Numbered from the stretch's first letter, positions 2,780 through 64,000 are shown. The stretch: DNA of 64,000 bases from Candidatus Norongarragalinales archaeon (GCA_038884755.1 JAWABJ010000001.1:251378-315377); one strand, 5' to 3'. Numbers and translations are program-made. Notes: a model not told the origin generated them from the sequence alone.

Positions 2780-2834
2780 AGCCACACGGTTTTTTAAGCA
2801 TCTTTCGCGTGATGTTGGAAACGGGTGTTGTTTT

Positions 2835-9461: not shown

Positions 9462-12400
9462 ATGTACGACGGAAAGGAAAAAGGCGGGGGCAAGACTTTC
9501 TTCGAAAGCGTTGAAGAGTCCTACTATTCATTTTGCGATTCGTTGCAGGAGAAAGGCATTAAGGTTTACGACTGGTTCGTCGACCCTCTCGAGAAAAACG
9601 GCATTCCCTCGCTTCCGGTAATGCTGCTCATTCTGTTGGCAGTGCTTTTGGGCGCAGGGTGGCTTTTGTTTAATCCCGCGCAGGGCTCGGGCGCGTATTC
9701 CTTGAGTGTGAGCATAACCACGGAAAAAGGTCCGGTCGACGACGCGTTTGTTTCTCTTTTCAAAGGCAGTTCGCTCGTGGCGAAGGAAAAAACGCAGGCC
9801 GGGGTGGCTTTGTTCGAAGGGATTGAAGGCGGGGAGTACTCGATTGAAGTTGAGAAAGAGGGTTTCGAGAAAACCGCGCAAAACGTTCTCGTGCCCGACC
9901 AGGATTACGTTGAAATAACGCTTAAGCCCGGAGTTCAAACGCGCACGCAGCCGAACGGCAAAACCACGCCCAATTCCGTGAGTTTCAACAACCTCGACTT
10001 TCCGTCGGGAAGCGGAAAATTGGTTTTGCATATATTCGTAAATAGTCCCGGCGGGCAGAGCTTGAACGCTATTGCAACAGTGTACGACAAGCGCTCGATG
10101 GCTTCGCTTGGAACCGTGAACGTGAAAGACGGGTGGGGCACTTTCGACAGTCTTGAGGAAGGAATGCTGGTTTACGCCGACGTGAGCGCAGAAGGCTTTG
10201 CGCCTTACTCGGGTTCGGAAAACGCCATTACAATTTCCAAAAGCGGAATCAACTCTCTTACCGTAACACTTTCGGCCTTGACCGGCGATTTCGTTGAAAC
10301 TCTTGTTCGCGTGAGCGACTTGCAGGACGCGCCTGTTGCAGGAGCTTCAATCCAAGTTTTTCCCGCTGGCTCTGCAACTCCCTTGACTTTGTCCAATTCG
10401 CTTACTGATTCCAAGGGAATGCTCAAGCTTTTTTTGAATTCTAAAAACGAGTCTAGGTACAAGCTTCTTGCGGGCAAAACCGGTTTCGACGACACGGAAA
10501 GCGAGTGGTTCAAGGCAGGCGAGCCTGTCGCAGTGCGCTTGCACAAGCCCGGAGAATATACCGAAGACGAGAAAAGCCGCTCTTCGGCTTTGAACGCGCT
10601 TGTCACGCAAGAAGGAACGCCGGTGAAAGGGGCGGTAGTAACAATCGCGGGCGAAGGGCTTGTAACGCGCACGAGAGCCACAGACGCGCAGGGCAAGGCT
10701 TCGTTTTTCCTTTTCAACAAGCGCGGGTTGAACGTGGTTGCAAGCGCGGTGAAGGGAAACAGGGCTGCTTCCAAAGAGTTGGCTTTGGACGCTGCCGAAG
10801 TTTCGGTTGAATTGCCTTTGCAGAAAGCTTCGGGAATAGTAACGGTTAAAGCGGTGCGGTATTCCAACCAACAGCATTTGGACGCTTTGTTTGAAGCGCG
10901 AGAAAACAACGCGCTGCTTTCTTCTTGCGCTACCAACGGCGCAAGCCAAGAATGCGATTTGCAGGTTCCGCTCGGAACTACGGTTCAGATAACCGCTTCC
11001 TCGCAAGGCTTCGTTTCGGAAACGCACGAGGTGGTTGTGAACGCGCAGCAAATGTCTTACTCTTTCGCGTTGGTTTCGGAAAACGAAGTCCAATATTCGC
11101 AAATCAAGGACTTTCGCGTTACGCTGGAAGGAAGCAACGAAGCTGTTGAAATCCTTTATCCTGGAAAGCGTTACGAAGCTAAATTCACTTTGTTGGGCAA
11201 AACGCAAAGCACCGCAGACTCGTTCGGGTTTTACTTTTCCGTTGATGCTTCCAAAGCCGCGATAAAGAAAGTCACTCCTCCGTCTGCACCTGCGAAAACC
11301 TTGGGTTCCGCAACTGCCGCTTGCTCTCCAACCCAAATCAACTACAACAACGCTAACGCGGCGTGGGTGGATTTGACTTACCCCGGAAGCAATTCCGTTT
11401 CCAGCAAGAGCGTGAGAGTGGTTTTCGAAGTAAAGCCTTTGCCTGAAGGCGTTTTGGAGGAAAACACGATTGTGAAATACCGCAGTTTTCTCGTGCAAGG
11501 CGGGAAATACTACCGCAATCCTTTGAATGCGAACGACCCGCCTGAAAGGCGTTTTGACGCGAAAACTCCTTTGGCGTCCGGCTGCGATTCGCCGGCAATA
11601 AGCCGCACGTTCGTAATTAACGCCGCGGGCGTGTCGTGCAACAATTTTGCGTGCGTGCAAGTTGCTTTCACTCAACAGGGCGCGCAAAGCGCGAGGGACG
11701 GTTTCGTGGCTAAGGGCGGAGACAATCCCGCGCCAGTGATAATGGCTTTCGAAATTGCCATGCGCACCGCGCAGTTGCAAGGGGAGTTGGGTTTGTCTTT
11801 CAACGCGCCAGGCGGGTTTTTGGGCTTGCTTTCGCTGAAATACCCTGGAATTCCCGACGAGCAGGGCACTCCGCCCGAATTTCCGACTGTGCTCGAGTTC
11901 AACGGCAACGAAGGTTCTTTCTCCGTTTCGGTCGACCACTTGAAGTCTTACGCGAATTTCGAAGCGGGTTTCGTTTTCGGGGGGCAGGTTGCGTTGAAGC
12001 CCTTGGCGAAAACAAACCATTCTCAACTGTTTCTGCAAATTGCAGACAGCTCTAACGGGACTAGGCATACTGCGACCTATGGCGTCGTCACCAATGAAAC
12101 CATAGGCGGCGGGGGCGTTTCGAACGAAAGACTTTCGCTGCTTCCCGGCTCGCAGGATTCTTGCGGCGGCTCGCCTTTCGTAATTTACGACCCGGGCTTG
12201 AGAAACCAGATTTTGCTGAAGCAAACGCGGGATTTCCAGACGCAGTGCGGGACTGTTGAAATGCGCACCACGCCTTTGTTTCCGGCTGACGCGGTTAAAA
12301 TCACTGTCGACACCGCCGAAAGGCTTTTGGTTAACGTGACTGAAGACGACGGTTCGAGCATTTGCTTCGAATCGTGCTCTTTCGGCAGGGACGGTAAGGT

Positions 12401-20713: not shown

Positions 20714-20787
20714 AGTCAGAAGCTACCTCGGTCATCACAAGTCAGACTGGGACGGTGTCATCACGAAATAGGATTTGTGCAAAGCGC

Positions 20788-20796
20788 TTTTATTAA
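20788..20796 (+). promoter_or_regulatory. candidate TATA box (TTTTATTAA) for the RelA/SpoT-like gene
   Basis: About 35 nt upstream of the ATG at 20829, which supports that start over the track start at 20775. Confidence 0.35.
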
Positions 20797-20828
20797 GATT
20801 GAGTTCAATTGTTTTTATAGCTGGTTTA

Positions 20829-22376
20829 ATGGAAGAAGCTGCTGTTTCGAAAAGGTTTTCACAGAAGTTCGGCGCGCAAATTAGCTTTGCTAGAACGCTT
20901 TATGCCGGCCTCAAAGGAGAAAAGAATTTTGATTTCAACCTTGCCCTTGCGAATTACTTGCATTCCCACCAAGCGGACGATCAGCTTGTTTTAAGCGCTT
21001 TACTAGCCGGTCTGAGTAAAAAAGAGCTGGAGGAAATCAAAAAAAAAGGTGTGGCCAAGCACGTGTTGGAGCAGCACGAGAAAGAATGGGGTTTGGACAG
21101 GAAAGCAGTTAAAGATTTCAGTGAAAACTTGAAAGAGGCTTTAGAGATTATTGCAAGCTATATACAGTTGAAAGCAAATCCGGAAATGGATGCAAACGCG
21201 CATTTTGCAGCCGCGCTTGAAGCCCCCAAGCTACGCGCTTCGTTGTTGCGCGCTGCGGTATTGAACTTCGAACTGGAAAAACCATCAAAACAATCTGCTT
21301 TGCACGTGGAAGTGGCTGAACACGTTTACATTCCGTGGTTGAACCTCTTGGGTTTGGTTGACATGAGCAACGAACTCGGAGAAAAAGTTTTGAAAATCAA
21401 AGACCCTTTAGCATACGAAAAACTCTTTCAACACTTGGAAACAATGCCTGTCAGTAAACGTCCGTTCGGCAAAATGATTGCCTCCTTGAAAAAGAAAATC
21501 AGTAGGCTGGGGTTGGAGATTGAAGACGTTCAGTTCAGGAGAAAATCGATTTACAGCATTTACCAAAAACTCAAGGCTTACGGCTGTCCCGTTGGAAATC
21601 CAGCCTACGACCACGACCCTCGACTTTTAGACGATTTGTATGGGTTGAGGGTTGTTTTGAAGGCTGACGAGACTGAAAGCGAAAGCGAACAAGTTGCAAA
21701 GGCAAGACGAGTGTTGGATGTAGTACGCTCTTCATTCGAAATGCCTAAGGAGGCAAGGATAGACGAGTATGTCGCTGAAAAAGCAAAACCAAGCGGCTAT
21801 AAGGCTATTCACACGCCGGTTATTGGACCGCAGAATTTGCCGATAGAAATTCAAACAGTAACCAAACCATGGCACGCTGCGAACGAAGCTGGTCTTTCTT
21901 CCCATTTTTTCTACAAACTTTCTAAAGCTGTTAGCAGTCCTTTGAGGCAGGTGTTGGTTCGCATTCAAGAAGAGTTGAAGCGGGGCGTGCCGATAGAACG
22001 AGTTTTCAGGAGCATAGGCAAGCCGTTGATTTACGTGACAACCGACCGGTTTGGTCCGCAAGACCACGCTCTTCCTGCAGGTTCTACTCCCTTGGACTTG
22101 TGGTACGCGCATGGTTTCCGCAAGAAGTACGAAGAAAAAATGAAGGGAAAAATATTTTTCGAAACCGTAATGGTAAACGGTGAAACCGTTCCACTAACTA
22201 CTATCCTGAAGCCAGGCGATCACGTGCGTTTTGACGTGAGCGGAAGCCCGCCGAAAGTAGAGCTTATTGACCGGTTTGCGAACGAAGTAGCAACGCCTGA
22301 AGCGAGGGAAGGGTTGTGGAAGTTGAGGAGAAAACTGGGAAAATGGCGTTGGCTCAGGCGAAAGGAAGAGAGCTAA
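20829..22376 (+). CDS. RelA/SpoT homolog (RSH): degenerate HD domain, (p)ppGpp-synthetase domain and TGS domain
   Basis: Synthetase motifs RRKSIYSIYQKL, DDLYGLRVVL, SGYKAIHT, IEIQTVT and HFFYK. TGS-like region IYVTTDRFG...ALPAGSTPLDLWYA...VNGETVPLTTILKPGDHVRF. The N-terminal HD-domain remnant has LLAGL where the HD dyad is expected. Confidence 0.8.
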   Translation: MEEAAVSKRFSQKFGAQISFARTLYAGLKGEKNFDFNLALANYLHSHQADDQLVLSALLAGLSKKELEEIKKKGVAKHVLEQHEKEWGLDRKAVKDFSENLKEALEIIASYIQLKANPEMDANAHFAAALEAPKLRASLLRAAVLNFELEKPSKQSALHVEVAEHVYIPWLNLLGLVDMSNELGEKVLKIKDPLAYEKLFQHLETMPVSKRPFGKMIASLKKKISRLGLEIEDVQFRRKSIYSIYQKLKAYGCPVGNPAYDHDPRLLDDLYGLRVVLKADETESESEQVAKARRVLDVVRSSFEMPKEARIDEYVAEKAKPSGYKAIHTPVIGPQNLPIEIQTVTKPWHAANEAGLSSHFFYKLSKAVSSPLRQVLVRIQEELKRGVPIERVFRSIGKPLIYVTTDRFGPQDHALPAGSTPLDLWYAHGFRKKYEEKMKGKIFFETVMVNGETVPLTTILKPGDHVRFDVSGSPPKVELIDRFANEVATPEAREGLWKLRRKLGKWRWLRRKEES

Positions 22377-32145: not shown

Positions 32146-33141
32146 GTGGTTTTTTTGAAGGAAATAGGCGATTTGCAGCATCCAGTCAAAGCTTGGACTG
32201 CTTTAACCAGGGTTATAGCACACTTGGGGGAAATTCCACAAGAGGATTACTTGCGTAGAAACTATCCCGTCTTGGCTGAAGCGGTTGATTACCACGGCGG
32301 TTTGCATTCTTTGGTCGAAGCAAACAAGCAAGATCTTTCAATTCTTTTGCAAAACGCCTCCGAGCGGCACGAAACTTCCTTGTTGCATTGGAGTCGTGCG
32401 ATGGACGGTAACGAGCACGCGCGGGAAAAGTTAGTTGGTCTTTACAAGCGGCAGGCGGAAAGACTGGCATCAAAGCTTTATTCTCACAAGCTCCGAGGGA
32501 CTTGGAAGGATTGGGTTAGAGTGGACGTTGAAGACTTGGTTCAAGAAGGGCTAGTTTCCCTTGTGCAAGCCCTTCCCCGATACGATCCTTCAAAATCCAA
32601 GTTTCCTAAGTTTGCCCACTTGGTGATGGAGGGCGCTATGAAGCACTACTTGCGCGATAAAGCGCAAGTAATCCGCAAGCCGGCATGGGTTCAAGAGCTT
32701 AGGTCTAAAATGTCCAAGGCTTTCTTCGACTACCAGTCTAGGCACGGCATGAAGCCTACTTTTGAGCAACTGGCAAAACAAGCGAACGTTCCCGTGGAGC
32801 ACGTGATAGAAGCTTTCACTCACTACCAGCCCGTTTCCTTGCAAGCGGCTTTAGATTTTGAAGGCACGGGAAAGGAAGGACGGTTTTTTCAGGAGCCGGC
32901 GGCCCGGGACGAGTTGGAGCCGCTTGCTTTGAAAATGATTTTCTACAAGGCTTTGCGTGACCACGTGAAACTGTCGAAAATGCAGGCTGTGGCGTTAGGC
33001 ATGTCTGCAGATGGGCATTCTCTCGAGGAGATTGCAACGCACTTAGGAGTTTCACCCGACTCTGCAGGGCAGTTGGTTTACCAGGCGAAAAAGAAAATAA
33101 GGGAAAACCTGCTGTTCAAGCGCGAGCTTGGTATAAACTGA
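32146..33141 (+). CDS. sigma-70 family RNA polymerase sigma factor homolog
   Basis: Region 1.2/2: GNEHAREKLVGLYKRQAERLASKL...VEDLVQEGLVSLVQALPRYDPSKSKFPKFAHLVMEGAMKHYLRD..IRKP. Region 3: KPTFEQLAKQANVPVEHV. Region 4 HTH: LSKMQAVALGMSADGHSLEEIATHLGVSPDSAGQLVYQAKKKIRENL. Confidence 0.75.
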   Translation: MVFLKEIGDLQHPVKAWTALTRVIAHLGEIPQEDYLRRNYPVLAEAVDYHGGLHSLVEANKQDLSILLQNASERHETSLLHWSRAMDGNEHAREKLVGLYKRQAERLASKLYSHKLRGTWKDWVRVDVEDLVQEGLVSLVQALPRYDPSKSKFPKFAHLVMEGAMKHYLRDKAQVIRKPAWVQELRSKMSKAFFDYQSRHGMKPTFEQLAKQANVPVEHVIEAFTHYQPVSLQAALDFEGTGKEGRFFQEPAARDELEPLALKMIFYKALRDHVKLSKMQAVALGMSADGHSLEEIATHLGVSPDSAGQLVYQAKKKIRENLLFKRELGIN

Positions 33142-47332: not shown

Positions 47333-47791
47333 CTATGGCTTGTAAAGATTTTTTTCGTAAAGCAAAACCGTCTTTCCTCCGAGTTGTTTTTCCAAAACGC
47401 CTTTCTTCGCGAAGCCGAATTCCCCGTAAAGCTTTATTGCGACAGCGTTGTCTTCGGCTACGAGCAAAAACGCCTTGGGACAGTTTTTGGCTTTAGCGAA
47501 TTCGATGCAGTGCTGCAGCAGTCTTCGCCCTATGCCCTTGCCTTGAAGCTCTTTGAGCACGGCAAGGCCTAGGATTTTGGCGTTGCCGTCGTCCTGGATT
47601 TCTATATCCGCAAAACCCACCGTATGCCCTCCGCTCAAGGCGATGAAATAGAAAACTTTGTTGCTAGCAATCCGTTCCCTGATGGTTTGGAAAGTAAAGC
47701 CTGTATAAGGAAAGAAGTGGCGCGTGATTTGCGTTATCGCGTAAAGGTGCTTTTCTTCAGCTGGAACTATGTTAATTTCAACTTGCTCCAT
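47333..47791 (-). CDS. GNAT family N-acetyltransferase (RimI-like)
   Basis: 152 aa from the ATG at 47791, with the acetyl-CoA motif LAVLKELQGKGIGRRLL. Confidence 0.8.
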   Translation of the reverse strand: MEQVEINIVPAEEKHLYAITQITRHFFPYTGFTFQTIRERIASNKVFYFIALSGGHTVGFADIEIQDDGNAKILGLAVLKELQGKGIGRRLLQHCIEFAKAKNCPKAFLLVAEDNAVAIKLYGEFGFAKKGVLEKQLGGKTVLLYEKNLYKP

Positions 47792-47796
47792 GTTAT

Positions 47797-48372
47797 TTAT
47801 CCTGCTGTTGAGGGAACAAAATCTTTTGCCTTTGTCCAATCGCCTTCAAAAACCTTTTCGAACTCTTGAGCCAGAGAAACGCTTTCGACCACCACGCTGC
47901 TTTCGCGGTTGGAGCGCATTGCTTGCCTGCTCCAGTTGGTGCTTCCAACCAAAACCTTTCTTCCATCAACAACCGCAGTTTTCGAATGTGTGTTAGTGTA
48001 TTCTTTGGAGGCGAATCGAACTTGCACGCCTTTGTTTGCGAGAAACTCGGCGGTCGCGTAGTTCGATTCAACCCGCGGTTCGAGCAATACCCTAACTTTA
48101 ACTCCCTTGCCTGCAGCTTGCGCGAGCGTTTCCATCATTCCGGGGTTGGAAAACTGGTAGAGCATGGCGTCGAGAGTGCGTTCGGCCGAAAGGGCGAATG
48201 ATTCGAAATCGCCTTGCGAGCCGGGCGAGAATATGGCTTGCACGCTTGCAGCGCAGTATTGCGTTTGCATGATGGGGCGGTGGAGCGCCTGTACTGCGTA
48301 GAGGGATGCGATGGCGCAGAAAAAGCCTAGGGTGAAAACGAGTGCGAGCTCGAGCCTGCCGTGCGATTCCAT
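47797..48372 (-). CDS. phospholipase D / Nuc-like single-HKD protein, membrane-anchored or secreted
   Basis: HKD motif HSKTAVVDGRKVLVGSTNWS and an N-terminal hydrophobic helix. The start at 48372 (MESHGRLELALV...) is preferred, because the track start at 48435 overlaps the upstream gene. Confidence 0.75.
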   Translation of the reverse strand: MESHGRLELALVFTLGFFCAIASLYAVQALHRPIMQTQYCAASVQAIFSPGSQGDFESFALSAERTLDAMLYQFSNPGMMETLAQAAGKGVKVRVLLEPRVESNYATAEFLANKGVQVRFASKEYTNTHSKTAVVDGRKVLVGSTNWSRQAMRSNRESSVVVESVSLAQEFEKVFEGDWTKAKDFVPSTAG

Positions 48373-48409
48373 GCTTCTGTTCTTTATTTGATGACGCCTG
48401 CCTTGTTTT

Positions 48410-49285
48410 TTAATAGTATGCTTCGACGACTGCACCTATCGCGAGAAGCGCGAGCGAAAGGATTGTGAGAAATGCCACGTCTTCAATCAGGTATTTGAAA
48501 AACGGCTTTTTGTTTGAAGAACGGAGTATAGCTATGGACAACACGCCTCCAGCTAGCGCCGCCACCAAGTAAGAAGTTATTTCGAAAATGCCGTGGGGAA
48601 TCAGGCTCAGGAACCCCACTAGAACTCCTAGCATTCCTTGTTGCACGAGCTTTTCGCCAAGAATCACCCCTATTATAGACGCATTCCACAAGAGCAAATA
48701 CAACGCCCCTATGCCGTACAACAGAGAGAACAGGAACATCAGCGCCAAAACCTGGACGTTGTGCGTAAGCAAAAACTCGAATTTTTCGGCGCTGAAAACC
48801 TGGGCGGTTATTACCGCCCTTAACGTGCGGATTTCTTGGAGTTGCGAGTAGAACAGGTCGTAAGACTGCTGCTGGGGCAGTATACTGAACCAGAAAGTGT
48901 ACGCCAAAATCGCGCCGAGAAACACGAACCCGAAGAGTTCTATCATGGTCTTGTGCACGTTTATTATTCGCTTGAACCGCTGAAGCAGCGCGAATCTCGA
49001 AAGGTGCGAGAGCTGCTCGTCCTTCAATTCCTTCAGGACTTTCTTCCACTCGTCGATTTCCTCTTTCATGGTGTCGAAATGCTCTTCTTCCGCCTCGTCT
49101 CGCAAAAGGATGAAGAAAAACAGCGGAATCAATGGAATGAGGGCGAAAATGATGACCGAGCCTTGCAGCGAGGGGATGAGCATTTGCGTCAAAACGCCAA
49201 ACGAAACGAAGAGGAACGAAACGACGGCAAGCTCCCAAGGCTTGCGTTTTGCTTCTGAAGGCGAAACTATGTACTCCAAGACCAT
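48410..49285 (-). CDS. SpoIIM/DUF95-family integral membrane protein
   Basis: The start at 49285 gives MVLEYIVSPSEAKRKPWE.... The C-terminal LLWNASIIGV...LIPHGIFEITSYLVAALAG is typical of the family. The upstream part of the track ORF overlaps the tRNA gene. Confidence 0.7.
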   Translation of the reverse strand: MVLEYIVSPSEAKRKPWELAVVSFLFVSFGVLTQMLIPSLQGSVIIFALIPLIPLFFFILLRDEAEEEHFDTMKEEIDEWKKVLKELKDEQLSHLSRFALLQRFKRIINVHKTMIELFGFVFLGAILAYTFWFSILPQQQSYDLFYSQLQEIRTLRAVITAQVFSAEKFEFLLTHNVQVLALMFLFSLLYGIGALYLLLWNASIIGVILGEKLVQQGMLGVLVGFLSLIPHGIFEITSYLVAALAGGVLSIAILRSSNKKPFFKYLIEDVAFLTILSLALLAIGAVVEAYY

Positions 49286-49389
49286 TTTTTTATCGAAAAC
49301 GCTTACGGAAAAAGAAATTAAAACGCTTTTGTTGCACATACTACCCTGCAGTTGCGGCGATGGTCTAGTGGCATGATGCGACCTTCCCA

Positions 49390-49429
49390 ATGAATTTTTC
49401 TTCAAGAAAGAAAAGTTCAGTAAAGAAAA
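49390..49429 (+). other. tRNA intron 1 (canonical 37/38 position, about 40 nt)
   Basis: It separates the anticodon loop from the 3' half of the anticodon stem. It contains an 11-bp hairpin, GAATTTTTCTT/AAGAAAAGTTC. The boundary is ambiguous by 1 nt because of an A-run. Confidence 0.65.
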
Positions 49430-49450
49430 AGGTCGCGGCCCGGGTCCGAT

Positions 49451-49507
49451 AGGTGGGAGAAACACAGTTTCTCTTTCTGCCCTCTTCCTTGCGGTGGAGT
49501 ACGGAAA
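49451..49507 (+). other. tRNA intron 2 (T-loop, about position 59/60, about 57 nt)
   Basis: It separates the T-stem halves. TCCG (49445-48) can pair with CGGA (49502-05), flanked by 3-nt bulges ATA and AAT, giving a bulge-helix-bulge-like geometry. An internal hairpin is GGGAGAAAC-ACA-GTTTCTCTT. Confidence 0.5.
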
Positions 49508-49525
49508 TCCCGGTCGCCGCACTCC

Positions 49526-49530
49526 GTTTT
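49526..49530 (+). terminator. oligo-T tract after the tRNA
   Basis: T5 lies 5 nt after the discriminator base. A T10 run follows at 49549-49558. Confidence 0.4.
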
Positions 49531-49787
49531 TCAGAAACGATTTAAATCTTTTTTTTTTCCATATTTCGTTCGTATGCCGGCAAAACCCACGCCGCGCGCA
49601 ATCGGAGTTTCGCTCTTGCGCGTCGCAGTCCACGAAGATGTTTTACACTTTTTTTTTCACGAAGAGCATTCGAAGCCCAAGCCGATTCGCTGGGCTTTGC
49701 AATTCGCGCTTTGAGGACGTACCCCGCGTGGAGGGTGAAGCTCCCTCCTCAAACCCAGCACCAGCCTAAGCTACAATAGCACGGGTT

Positions 49788-50342
49788 TTAGCACTTGAAC
49801 GTCGAAGCCATGTAGTTTACCATTTTCAAGTCTTGCTTGAGCGAAACGGGTATTAGCGAAGTGAGTATTGCGTTGTAGGAAGGGCATTCGAAGTAATGCA
49901 GCCTTACCGTGATTTTTTCTCCCGCGATTTCTTTTTCGAAGGAAATTACCGTCGCCTTGCCGAACGCTTTTCCTTGCGAAAGGGTTTTCCTTTCCTGCGA
50001 ATCGAGCGAATCTATAGTATCCGCGGTCAGGGACTGCACGTTTTCGCTTGCAACAGTTATTTCAACCACTTCCGCAATTCCGCGTCCGGATGCGCTGAAA
50101 CTCACGCGGATTGGGCTGGAAGGATCGGGCGATTCGACGGCCCTGAACGACTGCGGATAGCTTATCTCGAATCCAAGCTCGTTCCTGTAAGCAAGGAAAT
50201 CGTCTTGGCTTACGCCCGAGTAGTCTTCAAACGCATTTGCCCCGAAGAAGGGCTGAACGTAACCCAGTCCCACGAGAATGCCTACCGCTAGGATTACCGC
50301 CGTGACAATCGATATTACCGTTTTGTTCATGTGTTTCATCAC
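49788..50342 (-). CDS. small membrane-anchored/secreted protein coupled to giant gene 3
   Basis: 184 aa with the N-terminal anchor KTVISIVTAVILAVGILVGLGYV. Its start codon overlaps the stop of the 3040-aa gene (GTGATGA). Confidence 0.65.
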   Translation of the reverse strand: MMKHMNKTVISIVTAVILAVGILVGLGYVQPFFGANAFEDYSGVSQDDFLAYRNELGFEISYPQSFRAVESPDPSSPIRVSFSASGRGIAEVVEITVASENVQSLTADTIDSLDSQERKTLSQGKAFGKATVISFEKEIAGEKITVRLHYFECPSYNAILTSLIPVSLKQDLKMVNYMASTFKC

Positions 50343-53300
50343 GCGTTTCGTTCTCTCATCTGGTTCGCGGTGTTTTCCAACGCGATTTTGGCTTTGGAAG
50401 CGGCTTCCTCTTCCTTTCCTTCCACCACTTGCACGCTCAAAATTTCTTCGCCCGACGGGGTTTTTTCTACTATCACGAGTCCTTGAGACTGCATTTCGTC
50501 GAGCGTTTGCCTGGCGTTTTTGACCGCGTCGAAGCTTGCGTCTCCGTTCGCTATTGCCGCGAGCGTTTCGACGCTACCCTGCGCTTGCTCCCTCGCGTCT
50601 CCCGCGGCGGTTTCTTCGGAATCCCCTTCTTGGGAGTAATCGCAAGGCGCGCCTATTTCTTTTTCAGTCAATTCTGCTTCAACGTTTCCTTGGAACGTGG
50701 GTTCGACGTCGGGCGCGAACAGGGAATCAAACAATTCAATGTAGTCATAAGAACCTCCGCTGGCGTCGATGAAGAACATGGCGTACGCAGGAATCTTCTC
50801 TCCCTTTTGCACTACGCCACTGTAGGGAATGTCGAGTTTCTTTACGTACAGGCATGCTTCCTTCCCTTCGCAAGCCTGTTGGGTGAAGCAAAGCCTTTTT
50901 TCCTTGTCGCACTTTTTGGTGGCAGGGTCGTAGTAGCAATACGCTACCGTGGAAGGATTGCCGTTTTCGGCGAAATGCATTGAAACCAAATAGTTCGTGA
51001 CTCGTTCGGCCAAAGGCGCTTCGACAGGCTCGCTTTGCACGTTGGTAATCAAGCTGAGCAACGCGGTGGGCGCGTATTGCGCTAGCAGCCTTCCGATTCT
51101 CGCTATTCCCCTTGGCTTCTGCACTTGGGGGGTTGAAACCGGTTGCGTAGGCGCCCCGCCTGTTTCTACTTGCTGCGGCGTTCCTCCTGTTGCAGGCGCA
51201 GCTCCGCCTGCTCCTGCCCCGCCGCCCGTAGGCCCGCCGATATTTTGCCCTCCGTGAACCGTTCCGAAGTTTTGGTTTCCGTAATTGATATTGAAGAAGT
51301 TGTTGTTTATCCGCTCGTAAGCGTTTTTGGTTGTGGAAAAAACTCCGCCGGGATTTGTCGCCGCCCTGTAGTAGGAGTAATAGGACGCCCTGGCGCTTGT
51401 AGCTGCTTGTCCTGCAGCCGACGACGCGCCTGCAGCGGGAATTTCTTGGGGCAGGAACGGGACAGGAAGATAGCGTTGGTATGGCACGGGCAGCATGTTA
51501 GGGCGCCTTACTATGGCTCGGTACGGCACTAGCGCAGTTCCTTCTTGCGTTATTCTTGCTGTTGCCTTTCGTTCGACGTCGGACAAAATCCTGTTTTTCA
51601 CGTCCGGAGTGATTTCTCCGAAGTTGAACTGGTGGCTTTGCCTTCCCGAACGGAAGAATTCGTTGTACAAATAACGCATTTCTTCGGATTCGGAGCCTGT
51701 GAGCGTGCTTTTAGCGACGAGTTCGTCGAGCCTTTGCGCCGCGAAGTAATCGCTGGCGTAGCCTTCAATCACCGCGCCTGTGACTGGCGAGAGTGCAACT
51801 GCAGTGAACGCGCCTGTTTGCCTTCCGAAGCTTCCGCCCGTGACAGCCGCAATGTTGCTTCCTCCGTAAACCGCAGTCGGGTCTTCAACCGAACCGGTTA
51901 TTGCCGAGCTTACGTAAGTGAACGTGGCGCTTCCCAAAGCGCGCAAGGCGATTTGCCTGAATGCGGCTGAAGCCGGCCCGCCGAAGCCGGCGTCTATGAA
52001 CGCCTGGGGGTACATCACGAAACGCAAGTGAGTGCAGAAGTCTGTTCCGGTGCAGGCGTTTGAAGCTGAAACTCCTTTCACGATTCCGCACGAAGAGAGG
52101 GTTTCAACGTTGTACAAAATGAGGTTGGCGCACAACCTTGCTATAAACCCTTGCTGGGGGCCGGGAATGAACGCGCTCGCGCAAGCTGCTGCAGTCCCTC
52201 CGTGCCAGCCTATTGCCAACGCATTTTTCATTCCCTGCACGTTGGCTTCGCACAACGCGCCGTCGTCGAAAAACGGTTTGGAACTGTCGACGAAACCGTT
52301 GGTGTTGAGGTTGTCAAACACTTGCGGGGAGAGCGAGTACATCGAACTCACGATTTGCCCGGCCATCTTGTAGTCGTTCGCGTCGGCTTTCTCCGAGTAC
52401 TTGCCTATTTCAATGAAGTCAGGCAAGCCGTTGAAGCGCATGTTCACCGGGCTTTCGATTATTTCATTGCCGGTATACACGAACAAGTCGTCAGCGGGCA
52501 TGAGCAAAGGCGCGTTGGCGAGGGTTTCCTCGCAGCTCATGAGTTTTTGCGAGCGGAATTCGATTTGCAGCGGCTTTTTGCCGCCCTCGATTTTCTTTGG
52601 GTCGAACTCGCAGAACCCTCCGCTTGCGGCGGGGTTCAAGTGCGCTTCGACCAAGTACGCGCCGCATCCCGTGAAGTCGATTTTAGCCTGTTCCGAAACC
52701 TTGAACTCCTTGAATTTCGACTGCCTTCCGATTTGCTCGGCCATTTGCTTCATGGCGTCGTCCAAATCGGCGGCAGCGCGCGTGTTGGACAAGTGCAGGA
52801 CGAAGCTCATTTTCCACGGGAGGTTGGTGCAAACCGTCTTCACGCTTGAAGTGTCGTTGGTTTCGGCGTCGAATTTCATGGACGCCACGCTCATGAAGTT
52901 GCAAATCGCGTTTATCGCCGAATCGTAAGTGCAGAAGTTGTTTTGGCAGTACGCGTAGTTGAAGCCCGGGTCGCACTGCACTTGCTTTTTCTTCAGCTGC
53001 GCGCCTGCGACGGGCGAGGGAGTGGGCGTGGGTTTTTCTCCCGTCGCTCCAACCCAAAGCGTTCCTATTGGCGTGGACGGGTAGAGCGACTCGCTTCCTG
53101 CGGGGGGAGTAAACACTTGCACTTTCAAGGTTTTAACTCTCTCTTCGCCGGTTCTCGCGCCTTTCGCTATGATTTTATAGTCGCTTGCGCTGGCGTGCTT
53201 GGCTTCGCATTCGAGGAAGATGCTTTCGCCTTTCGCAAGGATTTTTCCTCCGGCCACGCTTGCGCCGCGCGCGTTGTCGTAGTAGAAGCAGGATATCTGC

Positions 53301-62500: not shown

Positions 62501-64000
62501 ACGTCCGTCGGCTCGACGTTCAAAAAGTTCGTTGAAACTACTGGCACGTCGCGCGACTGGGCTTTGGCGAATTCAACTCCCGCGTCTGCTTCGACTGCGA
62601 AAGTCCCTACAGTTCTCGGGAAAACGCTTTTGAAGACGTAAATGCCGTTCTTGCCCGAGTCTTTCTGCCCGTCTCCAGCAAGAGTGTTTCCGCCGTTGGG
62701 AAATCCCAAGAACGGGTGGGTTTCGCCAGTTTCTATGATAGTGAGCACCGCGTTTTCAATTGGCCTTCCTTGCGCTGTAGTGAGCGTGACACGAAGGGGC
62801 TGGAATTCAGGGTCGTTCGGGGGAACGTTCGCTTCCATGACTTGAGGCGTTACGGTCAAAACCATTTGTCCAGTTCCAGTAAACTCGAGCACCGCGTCTG
62901 TTGCTGCAATCGGCCCGCCGTCGTCGGCAAACTCGGCTTTCACTGGCATGTAGTTTCCAGGAGCGCGTGCGTTCGCGATTGTCGAAACAGTTGCTTCCCC
63001 ATCCACAAGAGCAGGCTGGTGCAACTGTTTTTCTATTTCAAGCTTGTTCGACGTTGTGGAAAACCTTGCGATGGGGTTTTCTACCGTTTCGGGCGCGAAG
63101 GCTTTGACTTTCGCTTCGAGCAAAACCTGCTTTCCGAATTCCACGCTCAAAAACCGCGAGGACGTTTTGTTGTCGCTTTTCAGCGTAAGCGTAATGCAGC
63201 CTTTGTCGGTGCACTTTTGAAACCCTTGCGTAACCTTGTATTCGGAGCTTAGGGTTTCAGCAAAACAATGTTCTTTTGCCGGAACGTTTTCTTTAGTCCC
63301 AAGCTCTGCGTCTTCAGGCACTCTCGCCCACAAGCCGTTCTTGACTGCGAAAGCGCGGTAGCGAAAGTCTATCTTTTCGTTCGCTATTGCCGTGGGGCGA
63401 ATGCGTATTTTGGCGGAAAGCGTTTTCACGCCGACTTTTCCAGACGGGTATGAAAACGAAACCCATTTTCTTTCCGAACCGCTTTGCTGTTGCGCCTCTT
63501 GCAGGCAAGTGTTTTCTTGGTTGAAAGTGTTTCCAAAGTCTATTTGCGCGCGGTCTTCCTGCGGCGGCCTGTCGAACGAAGCGATGAACGCCTTTTCTTC
63601 GGCAATCGCCTGCTTGTCGCCCACCCGCAAGTAAAACCCTGTCTTCTGGGCTTGCGGGAAGCTCACGACGAGCGAAGCCTTGTACCATCCTCCCCTTTCC
63701 AGTTCTGTTGCAGAGTGTTCGGCGTCCAAAACCCCGCTTCCGGTGGAATCCATCTTGTACAAGGAAAAGTTGAGTATTTGCACGTCTTTCGCAAGGTTGG
63801 AAGGAAGCATGAGAATGGTTTTCGCCAGCTCTTGGCCTGTTGCGAGCGTAAGCTCTTCGCTTTGCGTGACTGCATAGCCGTCCGCTTCGGCTTTCAAGAG
63901 GACGGGAACGTTGGCGTAGACCGAGAGGTTGCAGTAAGAACCGTTGGAAGGAGTGTTGCATGACGCTATAGCCTGGTCTTTGTAGAACGCGGTTATGGTT
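59515..64000 (-). CDS. giant surface protein, paralog 4 (partial; N-terminus beyond the window edge)
   Basis: The reading frame stays open from 63897 to 64000; I translated it by hand and found no stop. The protein is therefore at least 1495 aa. It has a CarboxypepD_reg-like repeat (KAEADGYAVTQSEE), a divergent core block, Cys-rich segments and a P/S/T linker near the C-terminus. Confidence 0.85.
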   Translation of the reverse strand, partial: TITAFYKDQAIASCNTPSNGSYCNLSVYANVPVLLKAEADGYAVTQSEELTLATGQELAKTILMLPSNLAKDVQILNFSLYKMDSTGSGVLDAEHSATELERGGWYKASLVVSFPQAQKTGFYLRVGDKQAIAEEKAFIASFDRPPQEDRAQIDFGNTFNQENTCLQEAQQQSGSERKWVSFSYPSGKVGVKTLSAKIRIRPTAIANEKIDFRYRAFAVKNGLWARVPEDAELGTKENVPAKEHCFAETLSSEYKVTQGFQKCTDKGCITLTLKSDNKTSSRFLSVEFGKQVLLEAKVKAFAPETVENPIARFSTTSNKLEIEKQLHQPALVDGEATVSTIANARAPGNYMPVKAEFADDGGPIAATDAVLEFTGTGQMVLTVTPQVMEANVPPNDPEFQPLRVTLTTAQGRPIENAVLTIIETGETHPFLGFPNGGNTLAGDGQKDSGKNGIYVFKSVFPRTVGTFAVEADAGVEFAKAQSRDVPVVSTNFLNVEPTDVFVSGATACNSGVQLLLTKTIPVEAQVHYQVSGGSNESQCVEVLQPPRSPFTMKKGKAGQNEKTQVRVRPIKNTDCSLAFNSVLEGSGSAGFAETNFVVDCASLGEPSPTPSPGACSKENCTACNEGQCINLQNQGACKAVYENNQFKRCEQRKTQENKTADFCAAQRFDLGSLLASRLGFMSAQRIFNPNRNDRALAASATNRIVRIPRPPFFQIERASPDCEIQNGKLVCTKKVSPLVPSNGIALSLKNALGFNTQIATETKKPQCFSIRKVENIGLAKIGDFARKTISGAFRLPGGQYATLVVLFEPDQPGCAEYSYDQEKGVTLTPAQGRNELTLTIRDASNLGQAVKLDIVLKIEGESSKYAIASAPNFQSLNGIATRVNNAVEPAVIANNLQFESVEVGDAKIPAKDIASVAVGFPAEGYEFKIGTKTQPNIKTIQNNIEKASFDAVGNARTGVDAVSACTGQEFCFIENNKDFEQALKEEISEDLRKITGTMDSVSFTQAFDYDRVMLETAMTSALQDYLAGLIAYEACKKAGEDPIGDLRQRCASNRLSPQELPLNMGDAFASGFLAATCDSEVLNLASYATSGSVGLPGGYLNTLARRLVTQYILPGRAPIQVNHRIFRNLDTLINVPVKIAGEKGGFVVYSFQPSESIGLHQSGGYPDDFFGMQGFGSQCVPGDQSTCPFPNQCQFDPSVGMGRCVPGALYNNPFQFGPGFDAGNPFDYSYSDAQFQTPLNDDAVIVELKGTYGFGTQDYKRTDKSSSGFAASGMPYLKAGNPAELKGDGGSPNLLTMNKYGFADEIDTKDFLSVFSNAQQAQLAEFFKQELSKEALSAQVKEAIKSNALATEKTVKVVLKAGNESSISIKPIAPPAPSPSATPLPSPSPSPLPSPRPTPTPKAYEGFQYVQPKLSPNLVEKKLDEKPSATPEFELTVMFKVDADNPVKLDAQNSLKSVLAALKYLLDEKAPPLTCQLQASESSVSNAEACAVGR

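What the first reader, a model, noticed from the sequence alone, without database searches (positions are those of the whole stretch)
50339..64000. Second giant-protein locus: an operon of >=1495-aa, 3040-aa and 184-aa genes on the minus strand
On the minus strand, a gene that runs off the window edge (open frame to position 64000) is followed after 53 nt by a 3040-aa gene. The stop of the 3040-aa gene overlaps the start of a 184-aa membrane-anchored protein.

Both large proteins share features with the plus-strand pair:
- CarboxypepD_reg-like repeats, e.g. SVSVKVFSAAGDPISGASVTLQ...GEYRGAVYS and ..LKASADGFEDETVEV.
- A divergent copy of the core block. Compare P1 AAWVDLTYPGSNSVSSKSVRVVFEVKP...VKYRSFLVQGG, P3 VKWVDYSIPTFKGTKEITIQIKT...LEHRSAFNLPGG, and P4 RKWVSFSYPSGKVGVKTLSAKIRIRP...FRYRAFAVKNG.

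All four are therefore one multigene family with a common N-terminal scaffold and highly variable distal parts. The 3040-aa member also has a Gly-rich low-complexity tract (GGPTGGGAGAGGAAPATGG) and an acidic C-terminal tail.
Basis: partly seen in the sequence, partly recalled or inferred. Interest (0 to 1): 0.75.

Follow-up and report, generated by a model that had tools for sequence, protein, structure and literature searches.

The report
Conserved giant surface-protein trio in Micrarchaeota
Two huge membrane-anchored surface proteins (2037 and about 3037 residues) and a small membrane protein sit together in this tiny archaeon's genome, the same set recurs across its phylum, and it probably builds a long cell-surface structure whose outer two-thirds match no known protein.

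Summary
On the minus strand lie:
- P4, which runs off the window. Its full length is 2037 aa and it is intact.
- P3, 3040 aa from the TTG, or more likely 3037 aa from the ATG at 59452.
- S184, a 184-aa membrane-anchored protein whose start overlaps the P3 stop.

The window comes from a Candidatus Micrarchaeota (DPANN) chromosome.

All four giants in the window share one collinear plan:
- a conserved short N-terminal motif;
- one transmembrane anchor;
- 4-6 tandem Ig-like repeats;
- a conserved Cys pair;
- a "core" block. An HMM built without any P3 sequence hits P3 at E 3e-8, against 4.7 bits for the best of 300 shuffles.

Beyond about residue 1050 the three types cannot be aligned.

P3 is not a fast-changing adhesin. 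It is a collinear ~2800-3300-aa orthologue. It has only 11 relatives among 1.84 billion representative proteins, and every one that carries a source name is from Micrarchaeota. An S184 homologue follows it immediately in 5 of 5 loci, and a second giant lies beside it.

P3 probably has its own promoter, so a three-gene operon is only partly supported.

About 2300 residues of P3 have no Pfam, PDB or Foldseek match.

Most likely function: a surface-projecting complex for cell-cell or host contact. This is inferred, not shown.

The parts
59515..64000 (-). P4: the C-terminal 1494 codons plus stop of a 2037-aa giant protein. The first 543 codons lie beyond the window. The in-window part holds the last Ig-like repeat, the family core (KWVSFSYP...YRAFAV...PED...C-x4-C), a seventh Ig-like repeat, a Cys-rich stretch, an unmatched distal region and a Pro/Ser/Thr linker.
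   Evidence: The frame is open to the window edge. It is 100% identical to residues 544-2037 of P0001, which comes from a 714-kb contig. Orthologues are 47-76% identical. Repeat map. No Pfam or PDB hit for residues 830-2037.
59453..59514 (-). P4-P3 spacer (62 nt to the ATG). It holds a hairpin, CCCAACGCC (59502-59494) / TAAA / GGCGTGGGG (59489-59481), followed by a TATA-like TTTAAGTA (59480-59473) that ends 20 nt before the ATG.
   Evidence: Sequence. RNAfold gives -19.2 kcal/mol for the 69-nt piece. TATA-like boxes sit at the same distance in L001, L002, L003 and L004. Promoter activity is inferred, not tested.
50339..59452 (-). P3: a 3037-aa giant protein from the ATG at 59452 (3040 aa if the TTG at 59461 is used), stop included.
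   Evidence: ORF. Orthologues begin MLEG(L/V)(R/K)EWWE. It is collinear with 2816-3276-aa orthologues.
59324..59452 (-). P3 N-terminal motif (MLEGVREWWENFSYSLEEKGIP) plus the single transmembrane anchor (residues 28-46).
   Evidence: Hydropathy. The motif is shared with P1, P2, P4 and all relatives, which carry it in one or two copies.
57791..59311 (-). P3 stalk: six tandem Ig-like (CarboxypepD_reg/Big_1-type) repeats, residues 51-557.
   Evidence: Pfam PF13620 at E 1.3e-24. An iterated repeat HMM finds six hits at E 1e-11 to 3e-19. The family profile matches NOMO2 and a collagen adhesin in the PDB.
57245..57496 (-). P3 cupredoxin-like domain (residues 656-739) without the type-1 copper ligands.
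   Evidence: Pfam Cupredoxin_1 at E 0.001. The family profile matches nitrite reductase and amicyanin at E 4e-10 to 1e-7. In the alignment only P0013 and P0015 keep H...C-x2-H-x4-M.
56843..57226 (-). P3 copy of the family core block (residues 746-873; KWVDYSIP ... HRSAF ... PED ... C-x4-C).
   Evidence: An HMM built from non-P3 members hits at 27.9 bits, E 3e-8, against at most 4.7 bits for shuffles. hhalign places it in the same register as P4.
53312..56842 (-). P3 middle region (residues 874-2050): one more Ig-like repeat (967-1039) and about 1000 residues with no recognisable domain. It is conserved among orthologues.
   Evidence: Repeat HMM. No Pfam hit at E <= 5. It is 66-70% identical to P0009 and 24-31% to distant orthologues.
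51752..53311 (-). P3 module A (residues 2051-2570). It holds a beta-sandwich (2051-2130), an alpha/beta domain (2162-2395), and then five long Gly/Ala/Ser/Thr-rich helices of marginal hydrophobicity with conserved Cys (C-x5-C, CTGTDFCTH).
   Evidence: Two-module structure. AF2 gives pLDDT 70-85 for the first two domains and below 50 for the helices. Hydropathy is conserved in the orthologues, but apparent insertion energy is +1.5 to +4 kcal/mol, so these are not classical transmembrane helices. No Foldseek match.
51110..51751 (-). P3 variable low-complexity linker (residues 2571-2784), including GGPTGGGAGAGGAAPATGG.
   Evidence: It does not align between orthologues, and its length varies up to about 450 aa. 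AF2 pLDDT is about 22.
50342..51109 (-). P3 module B (residues 2785-3040). It holds a hydrophobic helix, the NVQSEPVEA motif, a beta-rich domain with four invariant Cys, and an acidic helical tail.
   Evidence: It is conserved in all 11 relatives. AF2 gives pLDDT 60-91. Acidic content is 17-20%.
49788..50342 (-). S184: a small membrane-anchored protein (transmembrane residues 9-27) with a ~150-aa domain and two invariant Cys, one of them the last residue. Its start overlaps the P3 stop.
   Evidence: Homologues (21-42% identical) follow the P3 orthologue immediately in L004, L007, L019/L020 and L021. No Pfam or NCBIfam hit.

Best explanation
P3 and P4 are single-pass, N-terminally anchored membrane proteins of a Micrarchaeota (DPANN) archaeon. 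The plus-strand pair P1 and P2 belong to the same family.

**Layout (shown or predicted from sequence)**
- A short conserved N-terminal segment stays in the cytoplasm.
- One helix spans the membrane.
- Six Ig-like domains form a stalk, which I infer to be rod-like and roughly 20-25 nm long.
- A family-specific core follows.
- A type-specific ectodomain of 1200-2200 residues projects outward.

**Partners (inferred from gene arrangement)**
- P3 is made together with the small membrane protein S184. Their genes overlap and are always paired.
- P3 works next to a second giant of the same family, P4 in this genome.

**Function (inferred)**
Together they form a cell-surface complex that reaches through or beyond the cell envelope and mediates contact with another cell, most plausibly the host of this reduced-genome archaeon. 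The conserved distal modules of P3 would be the working end. These are an alpha/beta domain, a bundle of marginally hydrophobic helices, and a Cys-rich C-terminal domain.

**Status of each step**
- Shown: gene structure, family relationships, conservation and gene order.
- Predicted from sequence: membrane topology and extracellular location.
- Inferred only: complex formation and any contact or adhesion role.
For: **Organism**
- The window carries A/V-type ATPase, TyrRS and SAH hydrolase genes.
- All named homologues are Candidatus Micrarchaeota, Micrarchaeia or Norongarragalinales.

**Topology**
- The only segment with a clear transmembrane signal is N-terminal. Apparent insertion energy is at or below 0 in most members.
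- Downstream lie Ig-like adhesin-type repeats, many conserved Cys and Pro/Ser/Thr linkers.
- N-x-S/T sequons are specifically depleted. P3 has 5 against 17.9 expected. Seven of eight orthologues show P <= 0.002. Housekeeping proteins of the window show no depletion. Selection on sequons suggests exposure to the glycosylation machinery outside the cell.

**Functional linkage**
- An S184 homologue directly follows the P3 orthologue in 5 of 5 loci, down to 22-28% P3 identity.
- A second EDKYY-type giant is adjacent in every case.

**Importance to the organism**
- The four giants occupy about 26 kb of a 714-kb contig.
- P3 length and collinearity are kept across the phylum.

**Faster-evolving tips**
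- P4 orthologues are 74/60/49% identical in the first ~1190 residues and 45/37/37% beyond.
- P3 versus P0009 is 68% identical up to residue 2000 and 36-59% after.

**Precedent**
- Giant membrane-anchored Ig-repeat proteins are proposed host-interaction devices in Nanohaloarchaeota (PMC10266531) and in other reduced symbionts (bioRxiv 10.1101/2025.05.02.651781).
Against: - No domain with a known binding, enzymatic or pore-forming function was found in about 2300 residues of P3 or about 1200 residues of P4.
- P3 is a uniformly conserved, fixed-length orthologue rather than a repeat-variable, rapidly diversifying adhesin.
- The locus sits in conserved synteny with two ftsZ genes and a SpoIIM-like membrane protein gene. 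That fits an intrinsic envelope role equally well.
- The N-terminal flank does not clearly obey the positive-inside rule.
- No expression, localisation or host data exist for this organism.
- The AF2 model is only partly confident, with mean pLDDT 54.
Confidence: 0.5

Rival explanations
1. Intrinsic envelope scaffold. The giants are structural parts of the archaeon's own cell envelope. They could act as spacers or rulers between membrane and S-layer, or as division-site envelope proteins. Host contact would not be their role.
For: - P3 length (2816-3276 aa) and collinearity are conserved at about 30% identity across the class. The repeat number is fixed at six.
- Synteny ftsZ-ftsZ-(giant)-P4-P3-S184-SpoIIM-like is seen in several genomes.
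- A conserved cytoplasmic N-terminal motif could dock onto an intracellular partner.
Against: - The distal parts evolve faster than the stalks.
- Several divergent paralogue types occur per genome.
- Gene order around the pair is not rigid: genes are inserted in L002 and L004, and the order is inverted in L019.
- The Micrarchaeota S-layer lattice protein is reported to be of the MSTP-like beta-sandwich type (bioRxiv 10.1101/2024.05.28.596244). No such domain is found in these proteins.
Confidence: 0.25
2. Contact-dependent toxin or effector delivery, CdiA-like. P3 is a long filament whose C-terminal module, after the NVQSEPVEA motif, is a toxin or effector. The small gene immediately downstream (S184) encodes the cognate immunity or protective protein.
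For: - A giant filament-like protein is followed by a tightly coupled small gene in 5 of 5 loci.
- A conserved motif precedes a separate C-terminal domain that sits behind a flexible linker.
- An M23 peptidase gene is inserted in the locus of one relative.
Against: - Module B and S184 are ordinary conserved orthologues, not polymorphic cassettes.
- There is no TPS, FHA, VENN, Rhs or toxin domain.
- S184 is predicted to be anchored with its domain outside the cell and has conserved Cys. That is unlike most immunity proteins.
- No orphan CT/immunity arrays were seen.
Confidence: 0.07
3. Membrane-inserting tip. The five marginally hydrophobic, small-residue-rich helices of module A, plus the helix before module B, insert into the host membrane on contact. 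They would form the intercellular channel through which the symbiont takes up metabolites.
For: - This helix cluster is the one compositional feature conserved in every P3 orthologue.
- AF2 predicts long helices there.
- Hydrophobicity is too low for constitutive transmembrane segments, as in conditional membrane-inserting domains.
Against: - The helices may simply be the buried core of a helical globular domain.
- pLDDT is below 50.
- There is no similarity to any pore-forming or fusion protein.
Confidence: 0.1
4. The long ORFs are decaying genes or assembly or annotation artefacts.
For: P3 orthologues are split by a frameshift in L004, in L007 and in one NCBI MAG.
Against: - The window copy is uninterrupted over 9.1 kb.
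- Intact 2816-3276-aa orthologues exist in at least seven clusters.
- Conservation runs along the whole length.
- P4 is intact at 2037 aa.
Confidence: 0.02

Closest known systems
Giant membrane-anchored extracellular proteins ('SPEARE') of Nanohaloarchaeota (Hamm et al. 2019; re-analysed in PMC10266531)
   Same: - They come from a DPANN archaeon with a very small genome.
- They are multi-thousand-residue proteins predicted to be cell-bound.
- The bulk includes tandem Ig-like domains.
- A role in host interaction is proposed.
- Functionally linked genes lie next to them.
   Different: - SPEARE proteins have an N-terminal Sec signal, about 75 Ig-like domains, a late transmembrane segment and a cytoplasmic VirB4/TraG-like ATPase domain (PMC10266531).
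- P3 and P4 have an N-terminal signal-anchor with a conserved motif, only 6-7 Ig-like repeats, no Walker A motif and no ATPase hit.
- No sequence similarity to SPEARE proteins was detected. All 11 relatives of the P3 C-terminus that carry a source name are from Micrarchaeota.
Bacterial giant repeat adhesins (LapA/MpIBP/SiiE-type; invasin/intimin Big_1 arrays)
   Same: - The overall logic is the same: a cell-proximal anchor, a rod of Ig-like extender domains, and distal non-repeat modules.
- P3 gives weak Pfam hits to Big_1, Invasin_D3, SpaA and SdrD_B.
   Different: - P3 and P4 are archaeal.
- They have no RTX GG.G.D repeats, no T1SS signal, and no LPXTG or outer-membrane beta-domain.
- The extender is short and of fixed length.
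- Most of the mass is non-repetitive and unmatched.
NOMO (nodal modulator; BOS complex subunit): a rod of CarboxypepD_reg-type Ig domains anchored in a membrane
   Same: - It is the best PDB sequence match for the stalk, at E 1.4e-9.
- It is a single-pass membrane protein with a long array of the same Ig-like domain type.
   Different: - NOMO is a eukaryotic ER protein made almost only of Ig domains, with a C-terminal anchor.
- The match covers only the repeats (profile positions 40-189) and says nothing about the distal modules.
CdiA/CdiI contact-dependent inhibition systems
   Same: - A giant filamentous exoprotein is followed directly by a small gene.
- A conserved motif precedes a separable C-terminal domain.
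   Different: - P3 has no TPS domain, FHA repeats or VENN motif.
- Its C-terminal domain and the small protein are conserved orthologues rather than polymorphic pairs.
Type-1 copper cupredoxins (amicyanin, plastocyanin, nitrite-reductase domain)
   Same: P3 family residues 656-739 match at profile level, at E 4e-10 to 1e-5. Two orthologues, P0013 and P0015, keep the H...C-x2-H-x4-M ligand set.
   Different: In the window's P3 the Cys, second His and Met ligands are replaced (FYYSDGLKPSTRAS). No blue-copper site is expected there.

Membership tests
CarboxypepD_reg (PF13620) domain-containing proteins | Score above the Pfam gathering threshold (32.3 bits) for PF13620 | tested here: met
   P3 scores 86.8 bits, E 1.3e-24. 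P1 scores 51.5 bits and P2 56.2 bits. The in-window part of P4 scores only 17.5 bits, but full-length P4 has six repeats by the family repeat HMM. This describes a domain, not a function.
Micrarchaeota 'EDKYY' giant-protein family (defined here) | N-terminal motif ([ED]-x-[YW]-[YW]...KG[IL]P/K...[IL]E[DE][KR]G[IV]P) followed by a single transmembrane helix | tested here: met
   Present in P1, P2, P4 (P0001) and, in a single-copy form, in P3. The pattern scan returned 14 loci, all from Micrarchaeota. P3 orthologues carry one or two copies.
Micrarchaeota 'EDKYY' giant-protein family (defined here) | Collinear stalk of Ig-like repeats, a Cys pair in the last repeat, and the KWV...[HY]R[SA]F...PED...C-x4-C core | tested here: met
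   Repeat maps. Cys positions. Core HMM E 3e-8 for P3 against shuffle controls. hhalign for P1/P2 vs P4 core gives E 9e-7.
Nanohaloarchaeal SPEARE / giant T4SS-like proteins | VirB4/TraG-like AAA+ ATPase domain after a late transmembrane segment | tested here: not met
   No ATPase family in the Pfam or NCBIfam scans of P3 or P4. No Walker A motif.
Nanohaloarchaeal SPEARE / giant T4SS-like proteins | Sequence homology to SPEARE proteins | tested here: not met
   An exhaustive phmmer search of P3 residues 1900-3040 found 11 proteins. Every one that carries a source name is from Micrarchaeota. The P4 search found 6, and the two that carry a name are Micrarchaeota. Only parts of the proteins were used as queries.
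CdiA-type two-partner-secretion polymorphic toxins | TPS domain, FHA repeats, VENN or an equivalent pretoxin motif, and a polymorphic CT with a cognate immunity gene | tested here: not met
   No Haemagg_act, Fil_haemagg or PT-VENN hits. No VENN in P3 or P4. The C-terminal module and the small protein are conserved orthologues.
RTX giant adhesins | C-terminal GG.G.D nonapeptide repeats and a T1SS signal | tested here: not met
   No GG.G.D match in P1-P4. No HemolysinCabind hit.
Archaeal S-layer lattice proteins (MSTP-like / DUF1608 type reported for Micrarchaeota) | MSTP-like beta-sandwich tile domains; C-terminal anchor or PGF-CTERM | tested here: not met
   No S-layer family hit in Pfam or NCBIfam. 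The C-termini are hydrophilic, with no terminal PGF plus transmembrane helix. The S-layer type is taken from bioRxiv 10.1101/2024.05.28.596244. A fold-level comparison was not possible for the whole protein.
Blue (type-1) copper proteins | Cupredoxin fold | tested here: met
   The family profile matches nitrite reductase and amicyanin at E 4e-10 to 5e-7. Pfam Cupredoxin_1 hits at E 0.001, which is below the gathering score for P3 alone.
Blue (type-1) copper proteins | His, Cys, His, Met copper ligands | tested here: not met
   The P3 alignment shows S/K/T at the Cys/His/Met positions. Only P0013 and P0015 retain the ligands.
Three-gene operon (P4-P3-S184) | Co-transcription from one promoter | not testable with these tools
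   **For:** same strand, a 62-nt gap and conserved order.
**Against:** a TATA-like box before P3 in all loci, oligo-T after the upstream gene in relatives, and inserted genes in L002 and L004.
P3 and S184 overlap. RNA-seq is needed.

The most novel reading that the evidence does not exclude
P3, S184 and the adjacent giant form a Micrarchaeota-specific intercellular-contact machine. In this reading the conserved distal helix bundle of P3 inserts into the host membrane and forms, or nucleates, the cytoplasmic bridge through which the symbiont feeds. The ~2000 unmatched residues would then represent new protein folds dedicated to archaeon-archaeon membrane bridging. The conserved cytoplasmic N-terminal motif, and the synteny with ftsZ, would couple this machine to the symbiont's own cytoskeleton.
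Probability: 0.1. Interest if true: 0.85.

Novelty: new variant of a known kind. Interest (0 to 1): 0.5.

Why it matters
DPANN archaea such as Micrarchaeota live attached to other cells. The molecules that make and use that contact are essentially unknown outside Nanohaloarchaeota.

This locus defines a phylum-restricted set:
- a ~3000-aa orthologue;
- its obligatory small membrane partner;
- a second giant of the same family.

The set takes up several percent of a 0.7-Mb genome, so it is under strong selection to be kept. That gives concrete, testable candidates for the contact or envelope apparatus of Micrarchaeota. It also provides:
- a diagnostic N-terminal motif for finding family members;
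- about 2000 residues of conserved sequence with no relatives in Pfam, the PDB or predicted viral structures.

If the function turns out to be only structural, the set remains a useful lineage marker and an example of giant proteins retained under genome reduction.

Tried and rejected
- **Whole-P3 homology search.** It timed out. I replaced it with sub-queries.
- **Word-index profile search of the P3 C-terminus.** The exhaustive search was the informative one.
- **AF2 with a 3-sequence alignment.** It was useless, at pLDDT 31. The 13-sequence alignment gave a partly confident model, at pLDDT 54.
- **Foldseek of that model.** Best E was 0.3 against the PDB and 0.2 against BFVD. The weak MarR/winged-helix-like and tape-measure rows are noise.
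- **Pfam at E <= 5 on eight sub-segments, NCBIfam, and PDB sequence or profile searches.** These found only Ig-like repeats and the cupredoxin module.
- **hhalign between the distal parts of the P3, P4 and P1 types.** Nothing was significant. A recurring C-x5-C mini-motif scored E about 0.5 and I did not count it.
- **Internal repeats by self-BLAST.** None were found at E <= 0.01.
- **C-terminal helices as true transmembrane segments.** I rejected this, because apparent insertion energies are +1.5 to +4 kcal/mol.
- **tRNA and Rfam scans of the window.** Both were empty.
- **Source contig of P0001.** It could not be fetched, so the 5' end of P4 and its upstream genes are known only from the protein record and from relatives.
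- **Literature searches.** They found no description of this family. The Gfrerer et al. S-layer paper is not held.

Full report
**1. What is in the sequence**

On the minus strand the frame 59515-63999 is open for 1495 codons to the window edge. I call this gene P4. After its TAA (59517-59515) comes a short spacer. Then a 9.1-kb ORF, P3, runs from 59461 (TTG) or 59452 (ATG) to the TGA at 50341-50339. That TGA overlaps the start of a 184-codon ORF, S184 (49788-50342), either as GTGA or as TGATG.

The Gly-rich tract starts at P3 residue 2742. The last 240 residues are 17-20% acidic. S184 has one strong N-terminal hydrophobic helix.

**2. Organism**

Neighbouring genes encode A/V-type ATPase subunits, a class I Tyr/Trp-tRNA synthetase, SAH hydrolase and H+-pyrophosphatase. 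Every named homologue of the giant proteins comes from Candidatus Micrarchaeota, Micrarchaeia or Norongarragalinales MAGs. The window is a chromosomal stretch of a Micrarchaeota (DPANN) archaeon. The database copy of P4 comes from a 714-kb contig.

**3. P4 is complete and P3 starts at an ATG**

P0001 is a 2037-aa protein that is 100% identical to the 1494 in-window residues of P4. The gene therefore continues 543 codons beyond the window and is intact.

Orthologues of P3 in four other loci begin MLEG(L/V)(R/K)EWWENFSYSLEEKGIP. The real P3 start is thus almost certainly the ATG at 59452, giving 3037 aa and a 62-nt spacer.

**4. One family with a common scaffold**

The four giants of the window are P1 (9462-14978), P2 (15021-20678), P3 and P4. 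They share, in the same order:
- a conserved N-terminal motif, for example EDKYYAFCDWLQGKGLKIYDWFVNPIEDRGVPSFP in P4; P3 has a single-copy version;
- one transmembrane helix;
- tandem Ig-like repeats of the CarboxypepD_reg/Big_1 type, six in P3 and P4 and four to five in P1 and P2;
- a Cys pair in the last repeat, at P1 489/498, P2 504/513, P3 513/521 and P4 557/566;
- a non-repeat "core";
- in P3 and P4, one more Ig-like repeat about 200 residues later.

Profile-profile comparisons of the whole N-terminal halves give E 6e-31 (P3 family vs P4 family), 3e-38 (P1/P2 vs P4 family) and 7.5e-13 (P1/P2 vs P3 family).

Ig repeats are promiscuous, so I tested the core on its own.
- With small profiles, P1/P2 vs P4 gave E 9e-7, P3 vs P4 gave E 7.6e-4, and P1/P2 vs P3 gave E 0.12. 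All three were in the same register.
- An HMM built from 17 members that excluded every P3 sequence hit P3 residues 746-873 at 27.9 bits, E 3e-8. The best of 300 shuffled decoys scored 4.7 bits.
- Distant P4-like proteins hit the P3 core directly at E about 1e-8.

P3 differs from the others by a cupredoxin-like domain inserted just before the core (residues 656-739). That domain has lost the copper ligands.

**5. Distal parts**

Beyond about residue 1050 the three types (P1/P2, P3, P4) cannot be aligned (hhalign E > 0.08).

None of the distal parts has a Pfam hit even at E <= 5. They have no NCBIfam hit. Their only PDB sequence or profile hits are to the Ig repeats and the cupredoxin module.

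The variability holds between types, not within them. P3 is collinear with its orthologues along its whole length. It is about 68% identical to P0009 up to residue 2000 and 36-59% after. It is about 30% identical throughout to P0011 and P0014. Orthologue lengths are 2816-3276 aa.

An exhaustive HMMER search of P3 residues 1900-3040 against 1.84 billion representative proteins found only 11 relatives. All that carry a name are "hypothetical" or "carboxypeptidase regulatory-like domain-containing" proteins of Micrarchaeota.

The P3 C-terminus has two conserved modules separated by a variable low-complexity linker.
- Module A covers residues about 2051-2570.
- Module B covers residues about 2785-3000.

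AF2 with a 13-sequence alignment (mean pLDDT 54) gives confident models for four pieces:
- a beta-sandwich at 2051-2130;
- an alpha/beta domain at 2162-2395;
- a beta-rich domain with four invariant Cys at 2813-2940;
- a helical acidic tail.

It gives low confidence for five long helices at about 2400-2525. Those helices correspond to Gly/Ala/Ser/Thr-rich, moderately hydrophobic segments conserved in every orthologue. Their apparent insertion energies of +1.5 to +4 kcal/mol argue against ordinary transmembrane helices. Foldseek found nothing significant in the PDB or BFVD.

**6. Gene neighbourhood and the operon question**

The P4-then-P3 order recurs in L001/L007, L002, L003 and L004.

A homologue of S184 follows the P3 orthologue immediately in every locus where the 3' end of P3 is visible. 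These are the window, L004, L007, L019/L020 and L021. In the last two the P3 orthologues are only 22-28% identical to P3. S184 homologues share the transmembrane helix and two invariant Cys, one of which is the C-terminal residue.

A second giant with the N-terminal motif is adjacent in all these loci. It lies upstream in most, but downstream, and of P1 type, in L019. Other genes can sit between the two giants. L002 has a 165-aa gene there, and L004 has an 828-aa Peptidase_M23 protein.

Upstream of every P3 orthologue a TATA-like box ends 20-24 nt before the ATG, whatever gene precedes it. The boxes are TTTAAGTA in the window, ATATAAAA in L001 and L002, GTATAAAA in L004 and TTTTTAAG in L003. 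Oligo-T runs follow the upstream gene in L001, L002 and L004. The window spacer carries a stable hairpin.

I conclude that P3 and S184 form a coupled unit, while P4 is probably transcribed separately. This conclusion is inferred and needs RNA data. Further synteny (ftsZ-ftsZ upstream; SpoIIM-like, PLD-like and GNAT genes downstream) is shared with relatives.

**7. How it most likely works**

Predicted from sequence:
- P3 and P4 are N-in/C-out single-pass membrane proteins.
- The only clear transmembrane segment is N-terminal.
- The rest carries adhesin-type Ig repeats, many conserved Cys and Pro/Ser/Thr linkers.

A further, unexpected sign of extracytoplasmic exposure is strong and conserved depletion of N-x-S/T sequons.
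- P3 has 5 observed against 17.9 expected.
- Seven of eight P3 orthologues show P <= 0.002.
- P4 orthologues are also depleted.
- Housekeeping proteins of the window are as expected.
- P2 is enriched.

The six-domain stalk would hold the distal 2000 residues away from the membrane. My estimate is roughly 20-25 nm, assuming about 4 nm per Ig domain; this rests on general knowledge, not a tool result.

The following steps are inference only. Obligatory pairing with S184 and the adjacency of a second giant suggest a multi-protein surface complex. These organisms have reduced genomes and are thought to live attached to hosts. Giant Ig-repeat membrane proteins are the proposed host-interaction devices of other DPANN lineages (PMC10266531; bioRxiv 10.1101/2025.05.02.651781). 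On that basis, cell-cell or host contact is the most likely role, and I put it at about 0.5.

The main rival, at about 0.25, is an intrinsic envelope or division-associated scaffold. It is favoured by the fixed length, the uniform conservation and the ftsZ/SpoIIM synteny. A CdiA-like toxin-immunity reading and a host-membrane-inserting tip remain possible but lack positive evidence.

**8. Comparison with known systems and novelty**

The locus works like the giant membrane-anchored proteins of Nanohaloarchaeota and like bacterial repeat adhesins. It fails their membership tests:
- no VirB4/TraG ATPase or Walker A motif;
- no RTX repeats;
- no TPS, FHA or VENN elements;
- no S-layer tile domain.

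The general kind, a giant surface protein of a reduced symbiont, is known. What I found no description of in the searchable literature is this particular family. Its distinguishing features are:
- the conserved cytoplasmic motif;
- the core block;
- a ~3000-aa collinear orthologue with an obligatory small partner;
- about 2000 unmatched residues.

I rate it a new variant of a known kind, of moderate interest (0.5). It offers concrete candidates for the Micrarchaeota contact or envelope apparatus, but no mechanism has been demonstrated.

Noticed in passing
window 32146-33141 (+): A 331-aa protein has Sigma70_r2 (E 1.7e-12) and a weak r4_2 hit. This is a bacterial-type sigma-70 factor gene in an archaeal (Micrarchaeota) chromosome.
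   Followed up: no
window 20775-22376 (+): A 533-aa protein with a RelA_SpoT nucleotidyltransferase domain (E 4.5e-17) lies directly downstream of the giant gene P2.
   Followed up: no
P3 (50339-59452), P4 (59515-64000), P2 (15021-20678) and their orthologues: - N-x-S/T sequons are strongly and consistently depleted in the P3 family: 3-5 observed against 14-18 expected in 7 of 8 members.
- Most P4 orthologues are also depleted.
- P2 is enriched, with 34 against 19.
- Housekeeping proteins of the window are as expected.
- The cause is unknown.
   Followed up: partly
window 57245-57496 (P3 residues 656-739); P0013, P0015, P0004, L018: - P3 carries a cupredoxin-like module that has lost its copper ligands.
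- Two distant orthologues keep a canonical H...C-x2-H-x4-M site.
- The same module occurs at other positions in other family members: residues 1771-1848 of the L018 protein, and the P4 orthologue P0004.
- This indicates domain shuffling.
   Followed up: partly
L004 4881-13609; L007 16954-25925; NCBI HLD62351/HLD62350: P3 orthologues are split into two ORFs at different positions in three assemblies. The split is a frameshift in L004 and L007. This could be sequencing error, decay or recoding.
   Followed up: partly
L004 2112-4598: In one relative an 828-aa membrane-anchored protein with a C-terminal Peptidase_M23 domain is inserted between the P4 and P3 orthologues. The window has no counterpart.
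   Followed up: partly
L001/L007 7544-9767; L003 2-604; L006, L009, L010: Two tandem ftsZ paralogues lie just upstream of the P4-type gene in at least five genomes. The same is therefore expected just beyond position 64000 plus 1.6 kb in this genome.
   Followed up: partly
window 47333-49633 (-): SpoIIM-like (407 aa), PLD-like (212 aa) and GNAT (168 aa) genes follow S184. The same order is found in L007. SpoIIM-like genes also lie near the giants in L012 and L017.
   Followed up: partly
P3 residues 2470-2476 (window ~52034-52054); P4 residues ~1508-1514; P1 residues ~1216-1222: A small C-x5-C motif (ACTGTDFC / ACTGQEFC / WCKDTPVC) recurs in the otherwise unalignable distal parts of all three types. 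It is not statistically significant, at hhalign E about 0.5.
   Followed up: partly
window 9462-14978 (P1), residues 1719-1737: P1 alone has a second hydrophobic segment about 100 residues before its C-terminus (KD 2.25; apparent insertion energy +2.5). It may be a second anchor.
   Followed up: no
window 59515-63897: the ORF listing reported P4 as a closed 1460-aa ORF starting at a TTG at 63897. In fact the frame is open to the window edge. This is a tool quirk, not biology.
   Followed up: yes
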